NCBI GenBank assembly: GCA_951406725.2
Contig: OX597825.1
Location: 14,260,001 to 14,324,000, forward strand
Source: Octopus vulgaris
Taxonomy: Eukaryota
Length of the DNA stretch: 64,000 bases
Direction: 5' to 3'
Shown here: one piece after another, positions 3,017 to 63,528 of the stretch
Layout: the number at the start of each line of letters is the position of its first letter
Numbering within the stretch: the first letter of the stretch is position 1
Notes under the pieces: generated by a model
The model's input: only the letters and a program-made list of their open reading frames with translations
Database searches by the model: none
Told to the model about the DNA's origin: nothing
Translations under genes and position numbers: made by a program

Positions 3017-3218
3017 TATATTCTATCATATTCTATCCGAACTCTAGAATTACATGTTTTCCTTAATATTTTGCACCTTCGCTAATGTATTTAACCTCGA
3101 GATGCTAGTATTCATAAAATAGTAGTTATCTAAGAATTTTCAATTGCTAAGCATTAACGTAACAAATGTGGAATATGTAAAACGTTCCAGTCGTTTAGTC
3201 AATAAAAGATTATGTAAA

Positions 3219-3457
3219 GGCGGCGAGGTGGCAGAAACGTTAGCACGCCGGACGAAATGCGTAGCCGTATTTCGTCTGCCGCTACGTTCTGAGTTCAAAT
3301 TCCGCCGAGGTCGTCTTTGCCTTTCATCCTTTCGGGGTCGATTAAATAAAGTACCATTTACGCACTGGGGTCGATATAATCAACTTAATCCGTTTGTCTG
3401 TCCTTGTTTGTCCTCTCCGTGTTTAGCCCCTTGTGGGTAGTAAAGAAATAGGTATTT
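3219..3457 (+). mobile_element. SINE-A full copy
   Basis: GGCGGCGAGGTGGCAGAAACGTTAG...GAGTTCAAATTCC...GTAAAGAAATAGGTATTT. Confidence 0.92.
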
Positions 3458-3867
3458 AAACGCACGTATAGATATACGAACAATTGATAAATAGAAATAT
3501 ATGTCTCTAAATATGAGATCCACATATGCAACGAAATACATGCTTGTCCACAAACATAGATACGCAGCTATATACCTATCTATATAAACTCTTGACTTTT
3601 CCAACAGAAACTGGAATAATCGTGTTCGCTATTATACATAGTTCAAAGAGAATGTTTCAAGAATATAGTCTGTGTCTGTATCTGTTTATTTTAGCTGACG
3701 TTTTCGTCGATTTTTTAGAAAAAAAGTTCGATTGTTACGTGCTAGTGTCTCCAACTGCAATTCGTAATTTGTTTGTTGGCGATCTCCGCTATACTAAAAA
3801 TACTTAAGCTGCTGAGAAACAGATGCATTTAGTAAAAACATTTTCAGCTGTCATAGAAATGGCATTT

Positions 3868-3967
3868 NNNNNNNNNNNNNNNNNNNNNNNNNNNNNNNNN
3901 NNNNNNNNNNNNNNNNNNNNNNNNNNNNNNNNNNNNNNNNNNNNNNNNNNNNNNNNNNNNNNNNNNN
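3868..3967. other. Assembly gap (100 N)
   Basis: Run of n. Confidence 1.
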
Positions 3968-4404
3968 AATAAAATGATTTTCGAACAGAATAGATTGTAT
4001 TTATCTCACGGGTATTGCTGTTTACGTAACTGATTTCCAGAGAATGAAACATAATCTTTATAACAAAGATACGTGTGGGCGGTTACTGAAAAGGGAAACT
4101 ATGTAAATAGGAAAGAAAAACATGCTTGCTTCTTCCTCTCCCCATCTCTCTGTTTATATATAAACATACATAGTTTAATGTACACAGTATATAGCTATGA
4201 GCAACTAAAAGTTTCATACATTGGAGGAATTATCTATGCAGGTTAAGGTATCCAATACGCTTAAGGTATCCAATAATTTGTAGGTCCTGAGCCCATGGCT
4301 TATTCAATCTACTAATCAGAAGAGTAGAGCAAACAAATCACGAGAAAAAACGAGTGCAAAGTGGATGCAATACCTTAGAAAAATCCATAATATATGTTAA
4401 AGTA

Positions 4405-4995
4405 TTACTCATTCTTATTTACTCATTTACTTGTTTCAGTCATTTGACTGCGGCCATGCTGGAACACCACCTTTAGTCGAGCAAATCGACCCCAGGACTT
4501 TATACTGTGTAAGCCTAGTACCTATTCTATCGTACTCTTTTGCCGAAACGCTAAGTTACGGGGACGTAAACACACCATCATCAGTTCTCAAGCGATGTTG
4601 GGGGACAAACACAGACACACAAGCATATACACATACATATATACATATATATATATATACATATTTATATATAGTTAATCCAAACAAGAAAGCACAAAAA
4701 AACACAACAACTGAGGATGTGGAACAAATATAGTATTATTGGACGCTCAGGAAAGAAGGAGGGTTTAACGTTTCGAGCGAAGCTCTTCGTCGGAAACATA
4801 GGAGAAGGGAAGACAGAAGAAAAAAATCGCCAACGGTACACACGCAGTTACATATAAATTTATACAGCAGGCTTCTGTCAGTTTCCGTCTACCAAATACA
4901 CTCACAAGGCTTTGGTCGACCCGAGGCTATAGTAGAAGACACTTGCCCAAGGTTCCATGCAGTGGGACTGAACCCGGAACCATGTAGTTCGTAAG
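4405..4995 (-). mobile_element. SINE-B (tRNA-derived, internal microsatellite), interrupted by an HHR module
   Basis: Matches full copies at 60685-61080 and 49990-50415. Confidence 0.88.
4672..4852 (-). mobile_element. HHR module family A (U4C core), HHR at 4763-4797
   Basis: Minus: GTTT CCGACGA a GAGC ttc GCTC GAAA CG TT AAAC; second copy at 34556-34705; sits in the TA tract of a SINE-B. Confidence 0.7.
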
Positions 4996-5250
4996 GAAGC
5001 CCGTCGTATGTAGGTATATATATGTATGTGTGGGTATATGTTTGTGCGTCTGTGTTTGTCCCCCTACCGTCGCTTGACAACCGATGCTGGTGTGTTTACG
5101 TCCCTGTAACTTAGCGGTTCGGCAAAAGATACCGATAGAATGAGTACTAGGCTTACAAAAAATAAGTCTTGCGGGTAGATTTGCTCGACTAAAGGCAGTG
5201 CTCCAGAATGGCCGCAGTCAAATGACTGAAACAATACAAGACTAAAAGAG
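4996..5250 (+). mobile_element. SINE-B 3' half
   Basis: cttgacaaccgatgctggtg...ggccgcagtcaaatgactgaaac. Confidence 0.85.
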
Positions 5251-6000
5251 TATATCACCATTGAATGATTCTCTATATGTTCATTGTTTGTCTGGCTTGT
5301 AGCGTGTATAGTATCACTGCTTATAGTGCCTTCATGAGGTAAGCTTAGCAGTGAAGCCTATTATTGTCTATATAGAAGTGTATGTAATTTTATTTAGTAG
5401 AAATCGTTTGCCAATATCTAGAAGAATAGAGTTTAGAAGATATTATTGAACGTTGGTGTACAACAGATTCATAGAATGTTTGTAGAAGAGAGCACCTTGG
5501 CGTAGGTGACAACAGTGCTGTCTGATAAAAAAAAAAAAACACTTACTATCATGTCTGTTTGAGGCAGAATGAGAACCCATATCTACAACCTATTCTAGAG
5601 TTTTTACAATCTAAAGAATCTGCTGACTATATTCACTAAACGAAGCTAAAACGTTTTGAATTGTTTTTAGGGTAAAAACGAAGGAAGTGTAGAGAGAATG
5701 ACATACATTTTCATATTGATTATCTACAAGCAACAAAATTATTTCACTTATATCTATTTTTGTTGTCTTTTCACGCGTCGAAAATAATTTAAAGCAAAGT
5801 CATTTATCATATATATATTTACATCGCTGACATTCAAATTATGAACTGATGAGAGATCGATGTTCTTATTATCAAATAACAGTACAACGAACGAATTGAT
5901 TTGCAACAAATATCCTCAAAACGAAATCTAAAGTGATAATGCAATAAAAATGAATTAAAATTATTAAAGGCTGTTTTATTGGTTTCCACCTAAAAACAAA

Positions 6001-6394
6001 TCTCTATATATAAAACAGAAGTTGTGTGTGTGTGTGTGGCAGGTTTGGTAGCATTCAACTAACACTATCTCCTCCGAGACCCTGCGGCGCAAGTTGACCA
6101 AAATTGAGAGTATGATAGAAGAAGGTTCGCCCTACATTCCGTTGAAGAGGAAATTCAAATCGGACCATGTTAAGACCACAAATTATTTACATCAAAAAGG
6201 TGCATTTTTCTATGAAAATCTCTATTTTTTACGATGTTTTTAACTGCTGTGTTGCCATTTTTCGGTGTATTTCAACCAAAAAAGTGTTCACTTAAAGAGA
6301 ATAACAAGCTACATAATGCAAAAGTTTTACTTTTCGAAAATTCCCATTCTAAAGGGTCGAAACAAACCCGAGCAACACCGGGCGATACTGCTAG
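6001..6394 (+). mobile_element. Non-autonomous Helitron
   Basis: 5' TC (a|TCTCTATATATAAAA), 3' hairpin CCCG-agcaacac-CGGG 8 nt before terminal CTAG|t; inserted between A and T with no TSD. Confidence 0.85.
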
Positions 6395-7675
6395 TATATG
6401 ATATTTTGAGAACAGGATAAAATTGAAATATTACTTAACAAATAGGAATTTTGGTATAAACGAAATGATTAAGCGAGAAATAATCTGCCCCACGAGGCTA
6501 GTAAAAGTATGGTTACACTGACTTCGATATTGAATTCTGAAATAACAACGAGGGTAATTTATTTGAAGCAGGACTGCAGTCATCTGTATGCCTCAGAATA
6601 TACAGCTTAGTCATTCGCCATTCGAAGTGAAAATTTCTCCAACCTCCATTTTACCATTTTTCTGTTCAGTGTTTATCACATGTCTATCAACCATACACTG
6701 CAATCGAATAAATTTAATACATAGCACTCCCAGTAATGTTTGCATTTGTGCCAATGCAAAAATCAACATTTACAATTACAACCTGGTTCTTCACATAAAA
6801 TATATTTCCACCAGATTTCAGTAGCAAATATTTTGGTTTTCTTTTTTTTTTTTTTTAAAGTCTGGCAATTTTTCATGAATTTCTGATACGTAATTTTGGA
6901 TATAATGCTTCATTTGATATTTAAATAAACATAAGTTAGAATCTGAATGTAAAACGACAGAGCAAATTTTGTTTTTATTAACGTTATTTGTTAATGCTCG
7001 ATGGTTGCAATGCCAAACATTGAAATGCATCACAATGGTAATTGCAGTTATTGCAGAAAGAAATGTAGACGCTTTGTCATTTCTGTTACTAACAAATGGA
7101 AGTTTAGCATGTGTTCTTTAAGCAAAGGTCAGGCGATTATAGTCAGAGAGGAAATTTCATCATTCGACTATCTCTCGTTCATTTTATAACGTTTATTTCA
7201 TTCATTTTCGAATTTTTTTTTTCCCCTCAGACAACATTTAAGCTAAATAATGGCCTAGGAGTGGTACAATAATTGAATTGAAATCTGTAGATTTTATGCC
7301 AAATGTACTGAATTTTGAAATATAATTTTCATTAACACGCTGGCTCTAATTTTCACCATTCTTCCAATCCCGCCTCCTTTCAAAGCATTATTCACATAAC
7401 GTTTCTTTCTTCGCTTTACGTCGTCCCCCCAAAAACATATACACAAATTTAATCATTTTAACCACAAATTCTTTGACCTTACTTGTCCTCAACACAACAG
7501 AAAAAAATTATTTATTGCTCTTTTTGTCGATCTCGACTAAAGGCAAGAGGTTATATTGTACACTCGCCGTGAGAATTAAGGCATGGAATTCTACTAAAGC
7601 TTGTTCTGTAACAGAGACATGGCGAGGTTGAGTTCATTGCAAACTGTGAGATTTGAACAATGCATTTATGCAAAT

Positions 7676-9152: not shown

Positions 9153-9700
9153 AAACACATGCTCCCACATTCAGTCCCACTGCGTGGCAACTTGGGCAAG
9201 GGAACTCAACTATAGCCTCGGGCCGACCAAAGCCTTGTGAGTGGATTTGGTAGACGGAAACTCGAAAGAAGCCCGTCGTATATATGTATACATATATGTA
9301 TTTATATGTGCCAAATTTTGGCATTGTAAGCTACACCAATGCTAGAACGGGACGACACTGCATAGTGCCAAATATCCCAGCAATGCCATCACGCTTCAGG
9401 ACCAGCTTCTGCAACAGCCTGGGTTTCAAGGGCCCACAGCTTTTTAATATTCTCCCAAAGTGTCTGAGGAACTTGCACAAAGTAGATGTAGCGGTTTTTA
9501 AATCAAAGCTGGACATCTTCCTGTCAAGAGTCCCAGATGAACCTACCTCACGGCAAGAGGTGCAAATGAGAGTAGTTGTATCAAACTCCATTCTTCACCA
9601 AGTGCCACATATTAGACGAGGTTCGTCGCAATAACAGTGTAGCACAAAACGGCGGTGCATCAGCATGGCCGCAGTTCTGAGCTGAAACTAGAAAAAAAAA

Positions 9701-9997: not shown

Positions 9998-10128
9998 ATA
10001 TAATAGCTACTCTCCAATTTACGTGCGTCTGAGTTCCGATGTTTCAATACATTTCTTTGTCATGCGGGTAAGTTGTCTTCATCATTGTGTGTGTGTGTAT
10101 ATATATATATATACACAGAAACATATAT

Positions 10129-10361
10129 ACGAGCTGGCAGAAACGTTTAGCATGCCGGGTGAAATGCGTGGGCGTATTTCGTCTGTCGTTACGTTCTGAG
10201 TTCAAATTCCGCCGAGGTCGACTTTGCCTTTCATCCTTTCGGCGTCGATCAAATAAGTACCAGTTATGCACTGGAGTCGATATAATCGACTTAATCCGTT
10301 TGTCTGACTATGTTTGTCCCTTCTGTGTTTAGCCCCTTGTGGGTAGTAAAGAAATAGGTAT
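10129..10361 (+). mobile_element. SINE-A copy
   Basis: Same head, B-box and tail as 3219-3457. Confidence 0.9.
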
Positions 10362-18769: not shown

Positions 18770-18972
18770 GATAGATCGTTAGCTCCTACACGCATTTTTT
18801 TCTCTCCTTGTTTCTCTCCTTGCTTTTTTTTTCTGTGTATTTTTCTGTCGAAGAGCGTAGGCTCGAAACGTAAAAGACTTGTTCTATTTTCATTCCTGAG
18901 CGCCATACTAATACATTTGTTTTTTTATACTCCACCTGCCTTCGTTTCTTGTTTATTTTCGTAAACCTTCCC

Positions 18973-18973
<1 letters not shown>
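18770..18973 (+). mobile_element. HHR module family B (A6U core), HHR at 18841-18876
   Basis: tttt CTGTCGA a GAGC gtag GCTC GAAA CG TA aaag; bounded by (TA)n; 5 copies in window. Confidence 0.72.
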
Positions 18974-19981: not shown

Positions 19982-20764
19982 GTAGTGTTATCAAAATGTT
20001 CTCAGACTAGTTATGTTTTATAAAAAACTCACTTATTTAACCTAATTGTTAACATCTCCTTCGGAATAGTCCCCTTGCACAGCAATACATTGGTTCCAAC
20101 GTTCCTGCTACTTTAAGAATCCGGCCTGGATATCGTTTTCCGCAAGCGAGTCTAGTCCCTTTTCGATTCACTCTCGACCTCAGCATCGTTGTTAAAACGG
20201 CGACCTTTTAGTTGCATTTTCCTCTACGAGAAGAGACGGAATTCCGCAGATCCAATCGCTTTTGGCGTACACCCTGCCTCACACGCTTCAAAACGTCGCA
20301 GTAGAACTCTCAACGTCTGGCCTTGGGGGACGATTTCTCGATGCACAATACCACGTTTCCAGGAGTAACGCTCGTGGTAGATCTTCCAGATCGCCCATCT
20401 TCTTCCAGGTACGTTCTTCCACTTTCGAAACGCCTGTACCCTCGAAAATTTGCGTAAAATCCATTGCTTTGTCCGTCGCTTTAAGCTTACCGAAGCATGC
20501 TCAATGACTTTGTAGCAGACTTCCCCAAGTTTAATGCAAATTTTCACGTTAGCTCTTTGTTCCTGTCCATGAAAAAATCGCAATTTTTAACATACGTGTG
20601 ATCAAAAAGGCAAAAATTTCACAACTTTCGAAGTAAACTCAGTAAAGTCACTCGGCTCAATGCCTCATGAAGATCACTGTCAGCTCTCTCTGCGTTGGCA
20701 AACGAGTGATGCCATCTGTTGGCACGCTACCAATTTAGTCCGGCAACCTATAGATACCACCTAC
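19982..20764 (-). mobile_element. Internally deleted, decayed mariner element
   Basis: EQRANVKICIKLG, RRFESGRTYLEEDGRSGRSTTS, IVHREIVPQGQT, QERWNQCIAVQGDY; degenerate TIRs (gtagtgttatcaaaatgttctcagacta vs gtaggtggtatctataggttgccggacta). Confidence 0.8.
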
Positions 20765-20791: not shown

Positions 20792-20977
20792 GATAGATCC
20801 CTAGCCATTACACATTTATTATTTTCTCTCCTTGTTTCTTTCTGTGTTCCTCTGTGTGGAAGAGCGTAAGCTCGAAACGTGAAAGACATTTCTCACTTCT
20901 CGAGCGTTATACTAATACATCTGTTTGTTGTCTATACCACCTGTCTTCATCTTTTGTTTTCTTTTGTGAATTCTCCC

Positions 20978-21929: not shown

Positions 21930-22615
21930 GATAATTGCTCCTGTTACCGCTTCCTATTCTCTTAGAGTAGTACCGACCATCTCGATTTCCAAAATGTCCG
22001 ACACTATCACGGTGACGCCGTCCGCATACGCCGACACAAAACTTCCCCGCCCTTCGAAACCTCCAGCTTCCGCAGTAATGGCCTGAGTGGCAGTATGTAG
22101 ATGAGGGTTGAGAGTGGGCATCCTTGACGAACTGAACGTGCGATATTAAATGATTTCGAGAGGTGACCATTTACTTTGACAACCGAACAGATGTCGCTGT
22201 ACATTGCAGCATTCCAGCCCCTGAACACGGGACCTAAATCAACCGCCTTCAGGACAGCCTCCAAGTACAGATTGTCAACCCTATCAAAAGCTTTCGATTA
22301 ATCCAAATAGATCAGGGCCCCACTCATGCCGGGTTCTTTACCAACACTCTCTATGATGTCTCGCGTGTGGTGGAGGTTGTCGTGTATAGTTCTGCTGGGG
22401 ATAACGCAAGTCTGCGTATCACCCACCAGTCTGTCAACGTACAAGCGCCACCCTCTTTGCAAACTCCTTGGCCAAAATTTTGTAATCTGTATTTAGCAGT
22501 GTTATCGGCCTAAAATTATCAACAATGTCCCCTTTGTTCGGATCCTTTCTTAGTAGCGTCTCCAGACCTCGGCTCACAGATCCAGGTGATCTCCCATTCT
22601 GCTACCAGTTGCCGT
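21930..22615 (-). pseudogene. L1/Tx1-clade LINE reverse transcriptase fragment
   Basis: VDNFRPITLLNTDYKILAK, LD*SKAFDRVD, SVRQGCPLS, SAYADGV; stops and frameshifts. Confidence 0.9.
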
Positions 22616-25405: not shown

Positions 25406-25941
25406 TTGGGTTGTCCGGAAAGTTCGTGCCGATTTATAGTAGCTTACCTTTCGACTTATTCCAGAACGTGGTTGAGTCCATAAAATAGGATTTGACTACA
25501 CCTCCATTTAGAAGGTTTATCTTCCTATAACCTGTGTTAATTCTCGAACCCTTTAAAATGGAAGATAAGAAAGTTCATTTTTGGCACTTGATGCTTTGGG
25601 AATCAAACAAAATTTGCTGCAGCTCGGCTGGGATGTGTTACCCCACCCTCCATATTCATCAGAGATTGCTCCTTCGGATTTCTACTTATTCAGGTCTCTG
25701 CGGGATAGTCTTAATGATAAAGATTTAAATTCCTTAGATAATGTAAAATGGTACTTTGATGAATTCTTTGCCATGAAACCACCTCAGTTCTTGGAAGAGG
25801 GAATTTTCAAGTTAGAGGAAAGATGGAGACGCATTGTGCAACAAAATGGTTCATATTTGGTTGATTAAAAATGTAATGGCAAGTATTTATTGACCTTTTT
25901 CTTTCCTTTAAAAATCGTCACGAACTTTCCGGACAACCCAA
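25406..25941 (+). mobile_element. Internally deleted mariner (536 bp) with intact TIRs and TA TSD
   Basis: TIR ttgggttgtccggaaagttcgtgccgattt / aaatcgtcacgaactttccggacaacccaa; MEDKKVHFWHLMLWE joined to LGWDVLPHPPYSSEIAPSDFYLFRSL...RWRRIVQQNGSY. Confidence 0.95.
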
Positions 25942-28302: not shown

Positions 28303-28459
28303 TTCGCATGCTGTATAGAGGGCACGTATACCTAATCCAACAGTTTCACTTACAATCTTGGCATAAAAATCGTAATGCAGAAATAAACTCTGCGATGAAA
28401 TTTAAAGCATGCTTCCAATCACTTGCTTATAAGTGACAGCCAAACGGGAAGTGTGGTTC

Positions 28460-28593
28460 CCCTGTTTATTTCTGTGTTCCTTTCTGTCGAAGAGCGTAAG
28501 AAACTTTCTGACTTCCCGGGCGTTAAACTAATCCAACTGTTTGTTGCTTACTACACAACCGTCTTCGTCTTTCTTTATATTTTTTGTAAATTC

Positions 28594-28600
<7 letters not shown>
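28460..28600 (+). mobile_element. HHR module family B, internally deleted
   Basis: ctttCTGTCGAagagcgtaag then deletion; family 3' part into (TA)n. Confidence 0.6.
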
Positions 28601-30854: not shown

Positions 30855-31070
30855 TAAGATCGCCATGTTGATTCGTTAGCTACTGCACGCATTTTTTTTC
30901 TCTCCTTCTTTCTGTGTTTTTCTCTCTCTGTGTATCTTTCTGTTGAAGAGCGTAGGCTCGAAACGTTAAAGACTTGTTTTATTTATATTTCCTGAGCGCC
31001 ATACTAATACAATCGTTCGTTTGTTTTCCACCTGCCTTCGTCTTTTGTTTATTTTCATAAAGCTTCCCGT

Positions 31071-34555: not shown

Positions 34556-34558
<3 letters not shown>

Positions 34559-34700
34559 TTCCTTCTCCTTTGTTTCCGACGAAGAGCTCCGCTCGAAACG
34601 TTAAATCCTCCTTCTTCCCTTCTTTCCTGAGCGTCCAATAATACTTTATTTGTTCCACGTCCTCGCGTTGCTGTGTTTTTTTGTGTTTTCTTGTTTGGAT

Positions 34701-34705
<5 letters not shown>
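34556..34705 (+). mobile_element. HHR module family A, HHR at 34572-34606
   Basis: gttt CCGACGA a GAGC tcc GCTC GAAA CG TT aaat; pure (TA)n on both sides. Confidence 0.72.
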
Positions 34706-41024: not shown

Positions 41025-42015
41025 CATATATTACATATCCTACCATTTAATACACCTAATTTGAACAAGCCGCTATTTGTAGTTTCAAGCTTTAAATGTA
41101 CAATAAATTGGCAGATTTGTAAATTATATCTCTATATCTCTAAATCAAGGAACTACGTGTAGCATTTTGATAAATTATGTATATAAAAGGATATATATAT
41201 ATATATATATATCACTGGATGGAGTATACATTAAAAAGCATCTGCAAGTTATTACATAGAAACTCCTACACATGTATGTTTGATTCTCCCCACACCCCAT
41301 ATATATATATATATATGGAAAATCGAGGTTTCAACTTATTCACATTGTCACGGGTTCCGGGGGAAGTAGTAGAAACGTTTGAGATTATCTTCCCATCTTA
41401 TAGGGTCACACTTAAATGCTTCAACTGCTGTGCCAGTGACGCCTTTTTTTTTTTTTGTCAGAAACACACGTGTACTGCTGTCTTTTTTTCTTCAGGCAAG
41501 CATGCTGTTTTTTGTTCTTAATGGCTCGTCAGTTTCTGAAAACACATTCACACACCTCATTTCTCTCCTTCTCTTAGGTACACACACACACACCATTCAC
41601 ACACACACACACATACACACACACACACATACTCACACACGTTCACATATTTCCACTCACACGATCTTATACACACCCATAGGCCGGCATATACACACAC
41701 ACGTACACATGTGCACGTACACATACGTACACACATACGTTCACACTCCGTCATACGCAACCATGCAAACACACACACACACACAGAAATTTGGTAGCCT
41801 CCTGCTACCAAATCTACTCAGAAGGTTATGGTTGGCGGGAGTCTATTGTAGAAGACACTTGGTATCGCCTAGGGGTATCGCAAGGTATCGCAAGGTATCG
41901 CCTAGGGGAGCGAACTCAGAGCTGTGTAGTTCGGAAGCAAGTTTATGAGGAGACAACCAAGCCTGAACCAAAGTGCGTCGTCTTCTAATCTATGGTACTG
42001 CTAGTGAAACTATAA

Positions 42016-42248
42016 GGCGGCGAGCTGGCAGAAACGTTAGCACGCCGGGCAAAATGCGTAGCCGTATTTCGTCTGCCTTTACGTTCTGAGTTCAAATTCC
42101 ACCGAGGTCGACTTTGGCTTTCATCCTTTCGGGGTCAATAAATTAAGTACTAGTTGCGCACTGGGGTCAATGTAATTGACTTAATTCGTTTGTGTGTCGT
42201 TGTTTGTCCTATGTTTAGCCCCTTAGGGGTAGTATAGAAATAGGTATT
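42016..42248 (+). mobile_element. SINE-A full copy
   Basis: Family match. Confidence 0.92.
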
Positions 42249-45421: not shown

Positions 45422-45562
45422 TATAAACAATCTAATATCACGGCATATTAGATTCCTCAATGGAAAAAAAAGTGGGTTTACCGCATGCATGGGATACAGA
45501 ACCGCACCAACGCACCCGCGCGCGTCTTTAATCTTATAAAATATTATTATTTGCAGAATGTA

Positions 45563-45960
45563 AGGCGGTGAGCTGGCAGAAACGTTAGCACGCTGGACGA
45601 AATGCGTAGCCGTATTTCGTCTGCCGTTACGTTCTGAGTTCAAATTCCGCTGAGCTCGACTTTGCCTTTCATCTTTTCGGGGTCTATTTAATAAGTACCA
45701 GTTACGCACTGGGGTCGATATAATCGACTTAATCCGTGTGTCTTCCTAGTTTGTCCCCTCTATGTTTAGCCCCTTGTGGGTAGTAAAGAAATCGGCATTT
45801 CGCCAGTCACTTACGTTCAAAGTTCAAGCTCCTCAGAGGGCGATTTTGCCTTCTATCGTTTCGGGGTTCGATAACTTAGACACCAGTGAAACACTAGGAC
45901 GATGTAATCGTCTTGTCCCCTCTCACCAAATTTCCGCTCTTGTACCTTTAGTAGAAAGGA
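45563..45960 (+). mobile_element. SINE-A joined to an older headless SINE-A variant
   Basis: Near-consensus unit 45563-45795, diverged unit 45795-45960. Confidence 0.85.
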
Positions 45961-48579: not shown

Positions 48580-49160
48580 GGGTGTACCTCTGTGTGAGAG
48601 AAGCGTGTGTCTATGCGTGTTTGTGTGAGTGTGTGTGTATGAGGGAAAAAGTGGAAGAGAAATAGAGAGACAGAGTAGTTTTGAATGAGTGACTCCGTGC
48701 GTTTATTTGAGTACAGTATGTGTATTTGTATTCTAGTCCTATAGTGTTTGCTTGTGTCTTTTTTTTTTTTGGTTTTTGGTTTATTTCGTTTGTATATTTG
48801 TCTGTAAGTGTTCCGTTGCAGAATGACCAAGGGGAAAGTTATAAAAGAACGCCGGTTTTCTCACTATAGAGTTCCTGACAAATCACTTCCATAATTCAAG
48901 TTGAAATGTGCGCGTTTGGTTGAGAAATCGCGTATATTTATCGAATGGTTCTCTCACATCTAAACTGTGAATGCATTCTGTGTTAGTGACCTATAAACTC
49001 CAATAAATGTGTCAGTTCATATGGTCCGTTCTGTATTCTACGACGAAACAATCATTTCCAGCTTGGGGGAGGGGGGGGGGGGAGAAACAATTTCGAAGCA
49101 GATGTGTGATAATATGATGCTGCTTCTTATTGTAATGAACGCAGTAAAGGCTGAAAGTAT

Positions 49161-49361
49161 AGCAGCGAGCTGGCAGAAACGTTAGCACACCGGGCAGAAT
49201 GCGTACCAGTATTTCGTCTGCCGTTACGTTCTGAGTTCAAATTCCGCCGAGGTCGACTTTGCCTTTCAATCTTTCGGGGTCGATTATATAAGTACCAGTT
49301 ACGCACTGGGGTCGATATAATCGACTTAATCCGTGTGTCTGTCCTAGTTTGTCCCCTCTAT
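49161..49361 (+). mobile_element. SINE-A, 3'-truncated
   Basis: Family match. Confidence 0.9.
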
Positions 49362-53878: not shown

Positions 53879-53932
<54 letters not shown>

Positions 53933-54083
53933 AATTAAGGACTGAACACGAAAAGTGGACAGTCAACATGCTAGATATAGACGTCAAATCGCCATTCACC
54001 ACAAAAGATTATGTTCTCAGATCAAACTCAACACAAAACCATAGCAATAAACAAGTGAAAAATATACGAAATAAAATAATTAC

Positions 54084-54148
54084 CCATGTACTAACTTAGT
54101 TTCAGCTGTTATTTTCTGCAAGGAAAACTGCAGCCATCATCAGCATGG
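54084..54148 (-). ncRNA. Type I hammerhead ribozyme (left arm copy)
   Basis: Mirror of 54365-54429. Confidence 0.82.
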
Positions 54149-54364
54149 TCCGTTATAAATGTAATTTGCTGGACTAGATGCATCTACCAAATTCACTCAC
54201 AAGACATGGGTAGTTCCAGCGCTAAAGAAGTAGGCACTCGTCACATGCTCACGCAAAAACCATTCATTTGAAAGATATATTCAAATGTAATAGGCTGAAC
54301 TCCATGCACGCGATATTTCGGTATCGTGTTTGCATCTAGTCCAGCAAATTACATTTATAACGGA

Positions 54365-54429
54365 CCATGCTGATGATGGCTGCAGTTTTCCTTGCGGAAA
54401 ATAACAGCTGAAACTAAGTTAGTACATGG
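54365..54429 (+). ncRNA. Type I hammerhead ribozyme, canonical core
   Basis: CCATG CTGATGA t GGCTG cag TTTTCC ttgc GGAAAA taa CAGCT GAAA CTA agt TAG TA CATGG. Confidence 0.85.
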
Positions 54430-54667
54430 GTAATTATTTTATTTCGTATATTTTTCACTTGTTTATTGCTATGGTTTTGTGTTGAGTTTGATCTGAGAAC
54501 ATAATCTTTTGTGGTGAATGGCGATTTGACGTCTATATCTAGCATGTTGACTGTCCACTTTTCGTGTTCAGTCCTTAATTGGTATATATAAATATTTTAA
54601 TCTTCGGATTCTTTTTTAATATGCTAGACCACTGGTCTTAATTGATAAATATCAATTTCTACCCTTA

Positions 54668-59247: not shown

Positions 59248-59735
59248 TTATCTAGTTTCAGCTCACAAGCTGTGGCCATACTGGGGCACCGCCATTCAGT
59301 GTTGCTACATGATTTTACTTCATGAATGCTTTTTAGCAATTGCCATTTGGTGCATGAGAGAGTTCGATGCAGCTGCCCTCATCTGCACCTCCTGCCGTGA
59401 AGTTGGTTCATCTGGGACACCTGACACGAAGAGATCCAGTTTTATTTTAAAGACATCTGCATCCACCCCATGCAGGTCTCTCAGGTCCTTCAGGAGGATA
59501 TTGAAGAGCTGTGGGCCTCTGAAGCCCAGGGTATCACAGTATCTTGTCATACATCTTGATGGCAAATTTGAAGTCCTTGGCACTATACAGTGGTGACCAG
59601 TTCTGGTATTTGTGTAACTCTTGATGCCAAAGTTTGGGACAAGTCCTTCCAGGGTCTTTCAGATGTATATTATGGCATATCTTTCTCGCCTACGCTCGAA
59701 AGAATAGAGTCTAAATCTCTTGAGTCATTCCCTAT
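59248..59735 (-). mobile_element. CR1/L2-group LINE 3' fragment
   Basis: LYSFERRRERYAIIYI*KTLEGLVPNFGI...GFRGPQLFNIL...FKIKLDLFVSGVPDEP; same family as 9306-9701. Confidence 0.82.
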
Positions 59736-63089: not shown

Positions 63090-63300
63090 ACAGTGAGAAT
63101 TTACTAAAAAATAAAAGACGAAGATGTGTGTGTAAACAACAAACAGATGTATTAGTTTACCGGTCGGGAAGTGAAAAGTCTTTTATGTTTCGAGCCTACG
63201 CTCTTCGACAGAAAGGAACACAGAAATAAACAGTGAGAGAAAATAGAAAACGGTTTAGTGGCTATCGATCTATCTTAACGAATGCCGGGCAGAGGGGTCA
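63090..63300 (-). mobile_element. HHR module family B, HHR at 63180-63215
   Basis: Minus: CTTT CTGTCGA a GAGC gtag GCTC GAAA CA TA AAAG; TA-flanked. Confidence 0.7.
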
Positions 63301-63528
63301 CATATATATATATATAAAGTTGAGGTTATAAGAGATAATGGTGTCATTGAGACCCAAAGATGTCAGGTAATGCTGAATAAGTGCTATAGACAGACCATGG
63401 TTAAGTTCCAGATTCGGTAATATTGCGAATAAAGGGTTCAACGTTTGTTCCAAGTCAGTGTGTGTATATAAGAATTTTTTGTGTAATAAGATAAAAATCC
63501 AAGGCTGTATAGATATTAGACATTTATA

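What the first reader, a model, noticed from the sequence alone, without database searches (positions are those of the whole stretch)
18770..18973. HHR family B: A6 replaced by U in every copy
Seen: five copies (18841, 20850, 28480, 30935, 63180 minus) read CTGTCGA, GTGTGGA, CTGTCGA, CTGTTGA, CTGTCGA. The four undeleted copies keep GAGC-gtar-GCTC and GAAAC, with a U-rich/AAAG stem I. Established: A6 is a highly conserved HHR core residue. Inference: either a functional natural core variant, or a successful element whose ribozyme is catalytically dead but retained as an RT-recognition structure.
Basis: partly seen in the sequence, partly recalled or inferred. Interest (0 to 1): 0.72.

Follow-up and report, generated by a model that had tools for sequence, protein, structure and literature searches.

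The report
Jumping-gene hammerhead with fixed U6 core
A very abundant short repeat in an animal genome, likely the tail end of a Penelope-type jumping gene, carries a hammerhead self-cutting RNA motif in which one normally fixed core letter (A6) is U in all five copies here and in the large majority of related copies while the rest of the motif is kept; this is predicted to slow cutting, and whether it still cuts is untested.

Summary
Observation confirmed. The five copies are 3'-end fragments of one high-copy repeat; all end 91-103 nt past the predicted cut site at (TA)n. The motif fits the minimal type I hammerhead of Penelope-like elements (PLEs) at every consensus position except 6. U6 is family-wide: in over 10,000 contigs per run from three organisms, A6 is under 2% in one and at most about 14% in the others. 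N7 takes all four letters; 0 of 27 constrained motif sites vary against 5 of 11 free ones, but the contrast with flanks is not significant (p about 0.1). Relatives with the same stem II have A6 in 57 of 58 loci, and the sister family in this window has A6 with U4C, so U6 is derived. Most likely an attenuated, dimer- or protein-assisted ribozyme (0.45); a dead but protein-bound fold is close behind (0.35). No cleavage data, and no PLE protein was tied to this family. No A6U natural hammerhead was found in the papers searched; Luense 2017 could not be read. The scan has noted U6 cores before, in this genome and others.

The parts
18770..18973 (+). Family B copy B1 (the finding): 204-nt fragment between two (TA)n runs
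18840..18877 (+). Minimal type I hammerhead motif of B1: stem I 18840-18844 with 18873-18877; C3 18845; U6 18848; extra A 18852; stem II 18853-18864; G12 18865; predicted cut after A17 18872
20792..20977 (+). Family B copy B2; decayed motif (G3, U6, G17, broken stem I); (TA)n at its 3' end
28455..28597 (+). Family B copy B3; core CTGTCGA at 28484-28490, 3' half of the motif deleted; 5' boundary approximate
30856..31070 (+). Family B copy B4; best-paired motif at 30935-30972 (5-bp stem I, U6, U7, U17); (TA)n on both sides
63093..63301 (-). Family B copy B5; motif 63215-63180 (U6 at 63208, A17 at 63184); reference for the copy profile
34556..34704 (+). Sister family A copy A1: same stem II, core CCGACGA (A6, U4C), ends 102 nt past the cut site at (TA)n
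4674..4830 (-). Sister family A copy A2 (A6, U4C); 5' boundary approximate

Best explanation
The repeat is likely the 3' end piece (pseudo-LTR) of a Penelope-like retrotransposon, and it carries that group's minimal hammerhead motif with U fixed at core position 6, which is predicted to leave a slow ribozyme that would cut only as a dimer or with help from the element's protein. Inferred mechanism: the element's endonuclease nicks a (TA)n run, its reverse transcriptase starts on uncut RNA about 90-100 nt downstream of the cut site and stops early, leaving short pieces with a fixed 3' end and variable 5' ends. Fast cutting would sever that start site from the rest of the template, so a weakened core is tolerated or favoured. 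U6 arose once in the ancestor of family B and was kept through subfamily divergence while selection likely held the other catalytic positions. Shown: sequence, family-wide U6, fixed 3' end, A6 in relatives. Inferred: PLE origin, selection, residual cutting.
For: Motif matches the published consensus U-rich-NNN CUGANGAH G..C GAAAN palindrome NUH NNN at all positions but 6 (PMC4209133 Fig. S3). The closest published example is the Acropora Neptune PLE hammerhead; locus L012 has nearly that sequence just downstream of a GIY-YIG-type PLE ORF end on the same strand. 57 of 58 hammerhead-like relatives have A6 although position 6 was not in the pattern. Stem I changes on both sides between lineages. 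In family B, N7 is C/U/G/A at 40/21/20/19% (X1), 22/45/29/4% (X2), 29/24/22/25% (X6); H17 is A or U; 0 of 27 constrained against 5 of 11 free motif sites vary at 14% or more (p=0.001). Six copies end 91-103 nt past the cut site, close to the 85-92 nt between cut site and RT start in the anole PLE, where uncut RNA is the main template and cutting needs the protein (PMC11167929). A natural A6C hammerhead keeps low activity and cuts well in Mn2+ (PMC3088659; PMC7151607). The sister family carries U4C, a variant reported as weak in vitro but sufficient in a viroid.
Against: No cleavage was measured. A6C lowered one hammerhead from 0.3 to 3.55e-6 per min at 0.3 mM Mg2+, and in a full pairwise scan every CUGA-turn mutant except the C3-G8 swap had low activity (PMC9901934); PLE minimal hammerheads are already slow, so the combined rate may be negligible. 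Hammerhead-dead mutants did not affect PLE insertion in vitro and Naiad PLEs spread without canonical hammerheads, so cutting need not be under selection. Constrained sites are not significantly more conserved than the flanks (p=0.08-0.10). No PLE ORF was found in the window or tied to family B, and flanks show no homology to the Neptune-like relative beyond the motif. In family B monomers U4-G5-U6 is predicted to pair with positions 15.1-16.2, an inactive rod, though A6 relatives have equally or more stable inactive folds.
Confidence: 0.45

Rival explanations
1. Same PLE end piece, but U6 has abolished meaningful cutting; the fold is kept because the element's protein (or a host factor) binds it during particle assembly or copying.
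For: Large losses for position-6 and CUGA mutants; cutting dispensable for insertion in vitro, and the PLE protein changes the hammerhead's folding, so it contacts this region directly or nearby; all intact-ended copies derive from RNA uncut at this site; motif still conserved.
Against: Binding alone does not obviously need the hammerhead-specific pattern of free N7 and H17 never G at an appreciable share; in the anole PLE the RNA 5' of ORF position +20, which includes the first core strand, could be removed without losing insertion.
Confidence: 0.35
2. Dead and unselected: U6 hitchhiked in one successful master element, and the motif looks conserved only because few master lineages and little time separate the subfamilies.
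For: Core-versus-flank contrast not significant; subfamilies may be few; Naiads show that hammerheads are dispensable.
Against: Three different substitutions at N7 each reached 19% or more and subfamilies diverge right outside stem I (hundreds of loose ends at 63173-63177 and 63218), while none of 27 constrained sites changed. N7 is often part of a CpG, which explains U7 but not G7 or A7.
Confidence: 0.15
3. Not a hammerhead at all: a small hairpin in a repeat that resembles one by chance, or a rod-shaped DNA/RNA hairpin used for another purpose.
For: Rfam gives no hit; the predicted lowest-energy monomer is a rod.
Against: 0 hits in 30 of 30 shuffles; near-identical motif with canonical CUGA core in relatives and in the published PLE set; stem I covaries.
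Confidence: 0.03

Closest known systems
Minimal type I hammerheads (min-HHR) in pseudo-LTRs of metazoan Penelope-like elements, especially the Acropora digitifera Neptune example (Cervera and de la Pena 2014, PMC4209133; main text parts 1-3 of 4 and supplement parts 1-2 of 3 read)
   Same: C3-U4-G5, G8-A9, extra nucleotide between 9 and 10.1, G10.1-C11.1, GAAA, palindromic ACGU in place of stem III, UH, short stem I, U-rich 5' flank, dispersed solo copies
   Different: U instead of A at position 6; all 56 aligned examples in Fig. S3 have A6 (the search descriptor required it). A at the cut site is common here, absent in 58 relatives found.
Bcep176 phage hammerhead with natural A6C (Perreault 2011 PMC3088659, section 8 and passages read; Naghdi 2020 PMC7151607, parts 1-2 of 4 read)
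   Same: Natural substitution at position 6 in an otherwise consensus core
   Different: C rather than U; a single phage locus that works as a monomer, against a family-wide change in a high-copy animal repeat with no stem III; A6C was assayed, A6U here was not
Poseidon PLE of Anolis (PAc) hammerhead (Frangieh 2024, PMC11167929, parts 1-2 of 4 read)
   Same: Insertion at AT-rich DNA, copies that extend a fixed distance past the cut site, uncut RNA as template
   Different: PAc has its start codon in stem II and was shown to cut with protein help; family B has no ATG there and no protein partner was identified
Metazoan non-LTR retrozymes (PMC7229834, passages read; bioRxiv 10.64898/2026.07.22.740005, part 1 of 5 read)
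   Same: Short protein-less repeats with a type I hammerhead, linked to PLEs
   Different: Retrozymes are tandem 170-400 nt monomers with canonical motifs; the five copies here are solitary, 5'-variable and of the minimal type

Membership tests
PLE minimal type I hammerhead (min-HHR) | CUGANGA core with A6 | tested here: not met
   U6 in 5 of 5 window copies; A6 under 2% in X1, at most about 14% in X2, X6, X22
PLE minimal type I hammerhead (min-HHR) | C3-G8, U4, G5, A9, G12-A13-A14, A15.1-U16.1 and H17 | tested here: met
   Met in B1, B4, B5; not in decayed B2 or deleted B3; no constrained site varies at 14% or more in DNA runs
PLE minimal type I hammerhead (min-HHR) | Extra nucleotide between 9 and 10.1, G10.1-C11.1, palindromic 15.2-16.2, short stem I | tested here: met
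   Extra A in 5 of 5; ACGU in 3 of 4 undeleted copies and about 80% of laid contigs; stem I 4-5 bp; stem I covaries among 18 chosen sequences
PLE minimal type I hammerhead (min-HHR) | Self-cleavage at H17 as a dimer | not testable with these tools
   No assay possible
Endonuclease-positive Penelope-like element (Neptune-like) | ORF with RT and GIY-YIG domains next to the pseudo-LTR | tested here: inconclusive
   None in the window; a relative with the same motif has one (L012; Pfam gave no hit); no whole genome held
Endonuclease-positive Penelope-like element (Neptune-like) | Fixed 3' end past the hammerhead, variable 5' truncation, (TA)n targets | tested here: met
   5 of 5 B copies end at the same motif next to TA-rich runs; 5' ends differ
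Endonuclease-positive Penelope-like element (Neptune-like) | Partial-tandem or inverted arrangement of copies with pseudo-LTRs | tested here: inconclusive
   Family B copies in the window are solitary; full-length copies could not be reached
Metazoan non-LTR retrozyme | Head-to-tail tandem monomers of 170-400 nt | tested here: not met
   5 of 5 copies solitary in the window; tandem arrays elsewhere in the genome not testable
Metazoan non-LTR retrozyme | Expression as circular RNA | not tested
   One ordinary RNA-seq run laid; not suited to this question

The most novel reading that the evidence does not exclude
U6 is not damage but a second working solution of the hammerhead core used by Penelope elements: it cuts at a useful rate in the cell, rescued by a partner change (A at the cut site, seen in most family B copies and in 0 of 58 A6 relatives), by the element's protein or by Mn2+, and it has arisen more than once in animals. 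Standard CUGANGA searches would then have missed a large class of active ribozymes, and sister families (U6, C4) would show PLEs tuning their ribozyme down to keep the template intact until copying.
Probability: 0.15. Interest if true: 0.8.

Novelty: new variant of a known kind. Interest (0 to 1): 0.5.

Why it matters
A6 is treated as invariant in hammerhead search descriptors, so a family like this is invisible to them (Rfam missed it here). A high-copy family with U6, beside a sister family with U4C and relatives with the canonical core, is a ready natural series for an open question: whether hammerhead cutting is needed for Penelope elements to spread, or whether the motif has another job. 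If U6 cuts, the sequence space of natural hammerheads is wider than assumed; if it does not, the family shows that a ribozyme-shaped RNA can be kept under selection without catalysis.

Tried and rejected
No whole genome is held, so copies could not be assembled or dated. Rfam: no gathering-level match in the window, no hammerhead among 12 weak matches over B4. The repeat finder was swamped by microsatellites. The second read lay, on 52 bases of B1, laid 3,379-7,482 contigs per run but returned no letter table, so the profile rests alone. No RNA holder was listed for the stretch; the one raw RNA run laid (X22, 2,818 reads, about 6% of the run) showed no pile of read starts or ends, but it is a fragmented library dominated by a few loci and says nothing on cutting. 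No joint at the cut site among the listed joints. Viral contigs: 1 chance match. Two protein searches with a reading of B1, meant to reach longer copies, found nothing. tblastn of the L012 ORF end against the window: no real hit; flank homology to L012 not above shuffles in 14 of 14 comparisons. PDB sequence search uninformative. Hydra-1_Obim hammerhead (PMC8557442 supplement) is a different motif; 'CGAAGAGC' has 0 occurrences there (line breaks could hide one). Rejected: the extra A as a novelty (part of the published consensus); the rod fold as special to U6 (A6 relatives have inactive folds 2.7-5.5 kcal/mol below the open form); A-to-I editing as a repair (cannot turn U into A; established knowledge). 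The only 'A6U' paper hit concerns twister ribozymes. Luense et al. 2017 is not held; Perreault Fig. S7 of inactive variants could not be read from its layout.

Full report
Setting. The window is AT-rich (28-39% GC), microsatellite-dense animal DNA with many short repeats and no long real ORF near the finding. Earlier scan notes call the genome an octopus; I did not test that. No assembly is held.

Observation. The finding spans one 204-nt repeat copy between two (TA)n runs. Each core is followed by an extra A, then GAGC-gtar-GCTC, GAAAC, G(A)U, H17 and AAAGA, which pairs with the U-rich 5' strand (stem I of 4-5 bp in B1, B4, B5). B2 is decayed (G3, G17, broken stem I) and B3 has lost the 3' half. 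A descriptor free at positions 4, 6 and 7 gave 5 hits in the window and none in 30 of 30 shuffles.

Is U6 family-wide? Contigs of three DNA runs from three coded organisms and raw reads of one RNA run were laid on B5 at 80% likeness: 11,192, 10,310 and 13,475 contigs and 2,818 reads. The table showed 40 of 114 variant rows. Position 6 (63208) is not among them. In X1 only one place has the change that would mean A6, and it is another site (63217), so A6 is under 2% there. X2, X6 and X22 each have two such places, not all shown; the lowest share among shown rows is 13.8%, so A6 is probably below about 14% in those runs (inferred from the ranking). Reference bias does not explain this: non-reference letters reach 60-78% at N7 and about 80% at 16.2. 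A second lay on a 52-base stretch gave no letter table.

Is the rest of the motif kept? N7 takes all four letters (C/U/G/A 40/21/20/19% in X1, 22/45/29/4% in X2, 29/24/22/25% in X6), H17 is A or U (U 5-36%), and one loop site, position 16.2 and the outer stem I site vary. G12 to A is 4-5% in DNA runs and 14% in the RNA run. Counting a site as variable if its second letter reaches 14% in a DNA run: 0 of 27 constrained sites, 5 of 11 free motif sites (p=0.001), 14 of 158 flank sites (p=0.10) or 11 of 109 deeply covered flank sites (p=0.08). So the hammerhead pattern is clear inside the motif but the contrast with flanks is not significant; flank variation is undercounted because divergent subfamilies stop aligning just outside stem I (loose ends at 63173-63177 and 63218).

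What is ancestral? A pattern holding only G8 to U16.1 was scanned against metagenome contigs; 120 loci came back from 19 of 64 parts. 58 of 120 have C3-Y4-G5 and 57 of these 58 have A6; the exception is a 67% GC contig without stem I. The other 62 have an even mix at that site, as chance matches would. The 58 are 43 distinct sequences from a few families, so they are not independent. 26 of 58 have U4C; H17 is C in 54, U in 4, never A. The main group is nearly identical to the Acropora digitifera Neptune PLE hammerhead in Fig. S3 of PMC4209133, and locus L012 has the end of a GIY-YIG-type ORF just upstream on the same strand (atlas score 0.96 to clusters where 11-21% of members carry GIY-YIG; Pfam itself gave no hit). 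On 18 sequences that I chose from 64 for diversity and mostly intact stems, the inner stem I pairs change on both sides (24 cells; 0 of 500 shuffles; slid controls lower), while stem II is fixed by the search pattern and says nothing. Family A in the window has A6 and U4C and is homologous to family B downstream of the cut site (z 2.7-4.6 in 8 of 8 comparisons). U6 is therefore a derived state of family B.

Anatomy of the insertions. B1, B2, B4, B5, A1 and A2 end 101, 96, 103, 91, 102 and 93 nt past the cut site, at TA-rich runs; B3 ends at the same motif. The 5' ends differ. This is the pattern of 3'-anchored, 5'-truncated retro-insertion at (TA)n, a target reported for Naiad and, by hypothesis, Neptune PLEs (PMC8557442 passages). 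It also means that these copies were made from RNA not cut at this motif. In the anole PLE the RT starts 111-118 nt into the ORF and the cut site is at 26, uncut RNA is the main template, hammerhead-dead mutants insert normally, and cutting needs the protein (PMC11167929). No PLE ORF could be tied to family B, so PLE origin rests on the motif and the insertion pattern.

Does it cut? Untested. For: the conservation pattern above; a natural A6C hammerhead has low but real activity (under 0.1 per min; PMC3088659) and 0.3 per min in Mn2+ (PMC7151607); U4C is weak in vitro but sufficient in a viroid. Against: A6C cost one ribozyme about five orders of magnitude at 0.3 mM Mg2+; all CUGA-turn single mutants were low in a pairwise scan (PMC9901934 passages; no figure for A6U seen); minimal PLE hammerheads are slow even when canonical; and cutting looks dispensable. 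Folding predictions do not decide: family B monomers favour a rod in which U4-G5-U6 pairs with 15.1-16.2 (0.9-2.4 kcal/mol below the open form), but A6 relatives have inactive folds as stable or more so. I put attenuated cutting at 0.45, a dead fold kept for binding at 0.35, unselected hitchhiking at 0.15.

Comparison and novelty. It works like a PLE minimal hammerhead and fails one defining feature, A6, so I file it as a variant, not a canonical member. All 56 motifs aligned in PMC4209133 have A6, by construction of the descriptor. Searches for a published natural A6U hammerhead (listings, with passages read where cited) found none. Luense et al. 2017, which reports many PLE-associated variants (recalled; seen only as a reference entry and through a review's passages), could not be read, and it or its supplements may bear on novelty. 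Earlier notes of this scan describe U6 cores in other parts of this genome, one in both terminal repeats of a young PLE, and in other genomes including sharks; these are unchecked AI notes and I could not confirm that they concern the same family (a look-up by sequence found nothing).

Verdict. A real, family-wide core variant of a known ribozyme kind in what is likely a Penelope end fragment; new variant of a known kind; interest 0.5, rising to about 0.8 if it cuts at a useful rate.

Noticed in passing
window 34556-34704 (+) and 4674-4830 (-): Sister family A has the core CCGACGA (U4C); the same U4C occurs in 26 of 58 related loci from metagenome contigs, so it is a recurrent natural variant in this group.
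   Followed up: partly
window 53918-54182 and 54331-54595: A 265-nt inverted repeat (99% complementary, between (TA)n runs) carries two mirror copies of a third hammerhead with canonical CUGAUGA core, long stem II and a small stem III (core at 54370 + and 54143 -); looks like a young PLE-type inverted insertion.
   Followed up: no
window 18872, 30967, 63184; L002-L121: A at the cut site (H17) is the majority state in family B (64-95% of depth) but occurs in 0 of 58 A6 relatives and not in family A; possible partner change to U6.
   Followed up: partly
window 28484-28520: The deletion in copy B3 appears to lie between two CGTA repeats (stem II loop and stem III), the second ending at the cut site; microhomology explains it without cutting.
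   Followed up: partly
L006, L009, L012 and similar loci: In the canonical relatives CUGACG and CGUCAG form a perfect 6-bp inverted repeat, giving an inactive monomer hairpin 5.5 kcal/mol below the open core (L012); may act as an off state.
   Followed up: partly
window 20080-20750 and 25569-25868: Fragments that look like mariner/Tc1 transposase (motifs recalled, no search run).
   Followed up: no
window 9254-9634, 22007-22297, 59320-59658: Reading frames that look like decayed LINE reverse transcriptase pieces (recalled, no search run).
   Followed up: no
window 3200-3260, 10100-10170, 42000-42060, 45550-45610, 49150-49200 (+); 16800, 24620, 53130 (-): At least eight copies of another short repeat sharing GGCGAGCTGGCAGAAACGTTAGC, SINE-like.
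   Followed up: no
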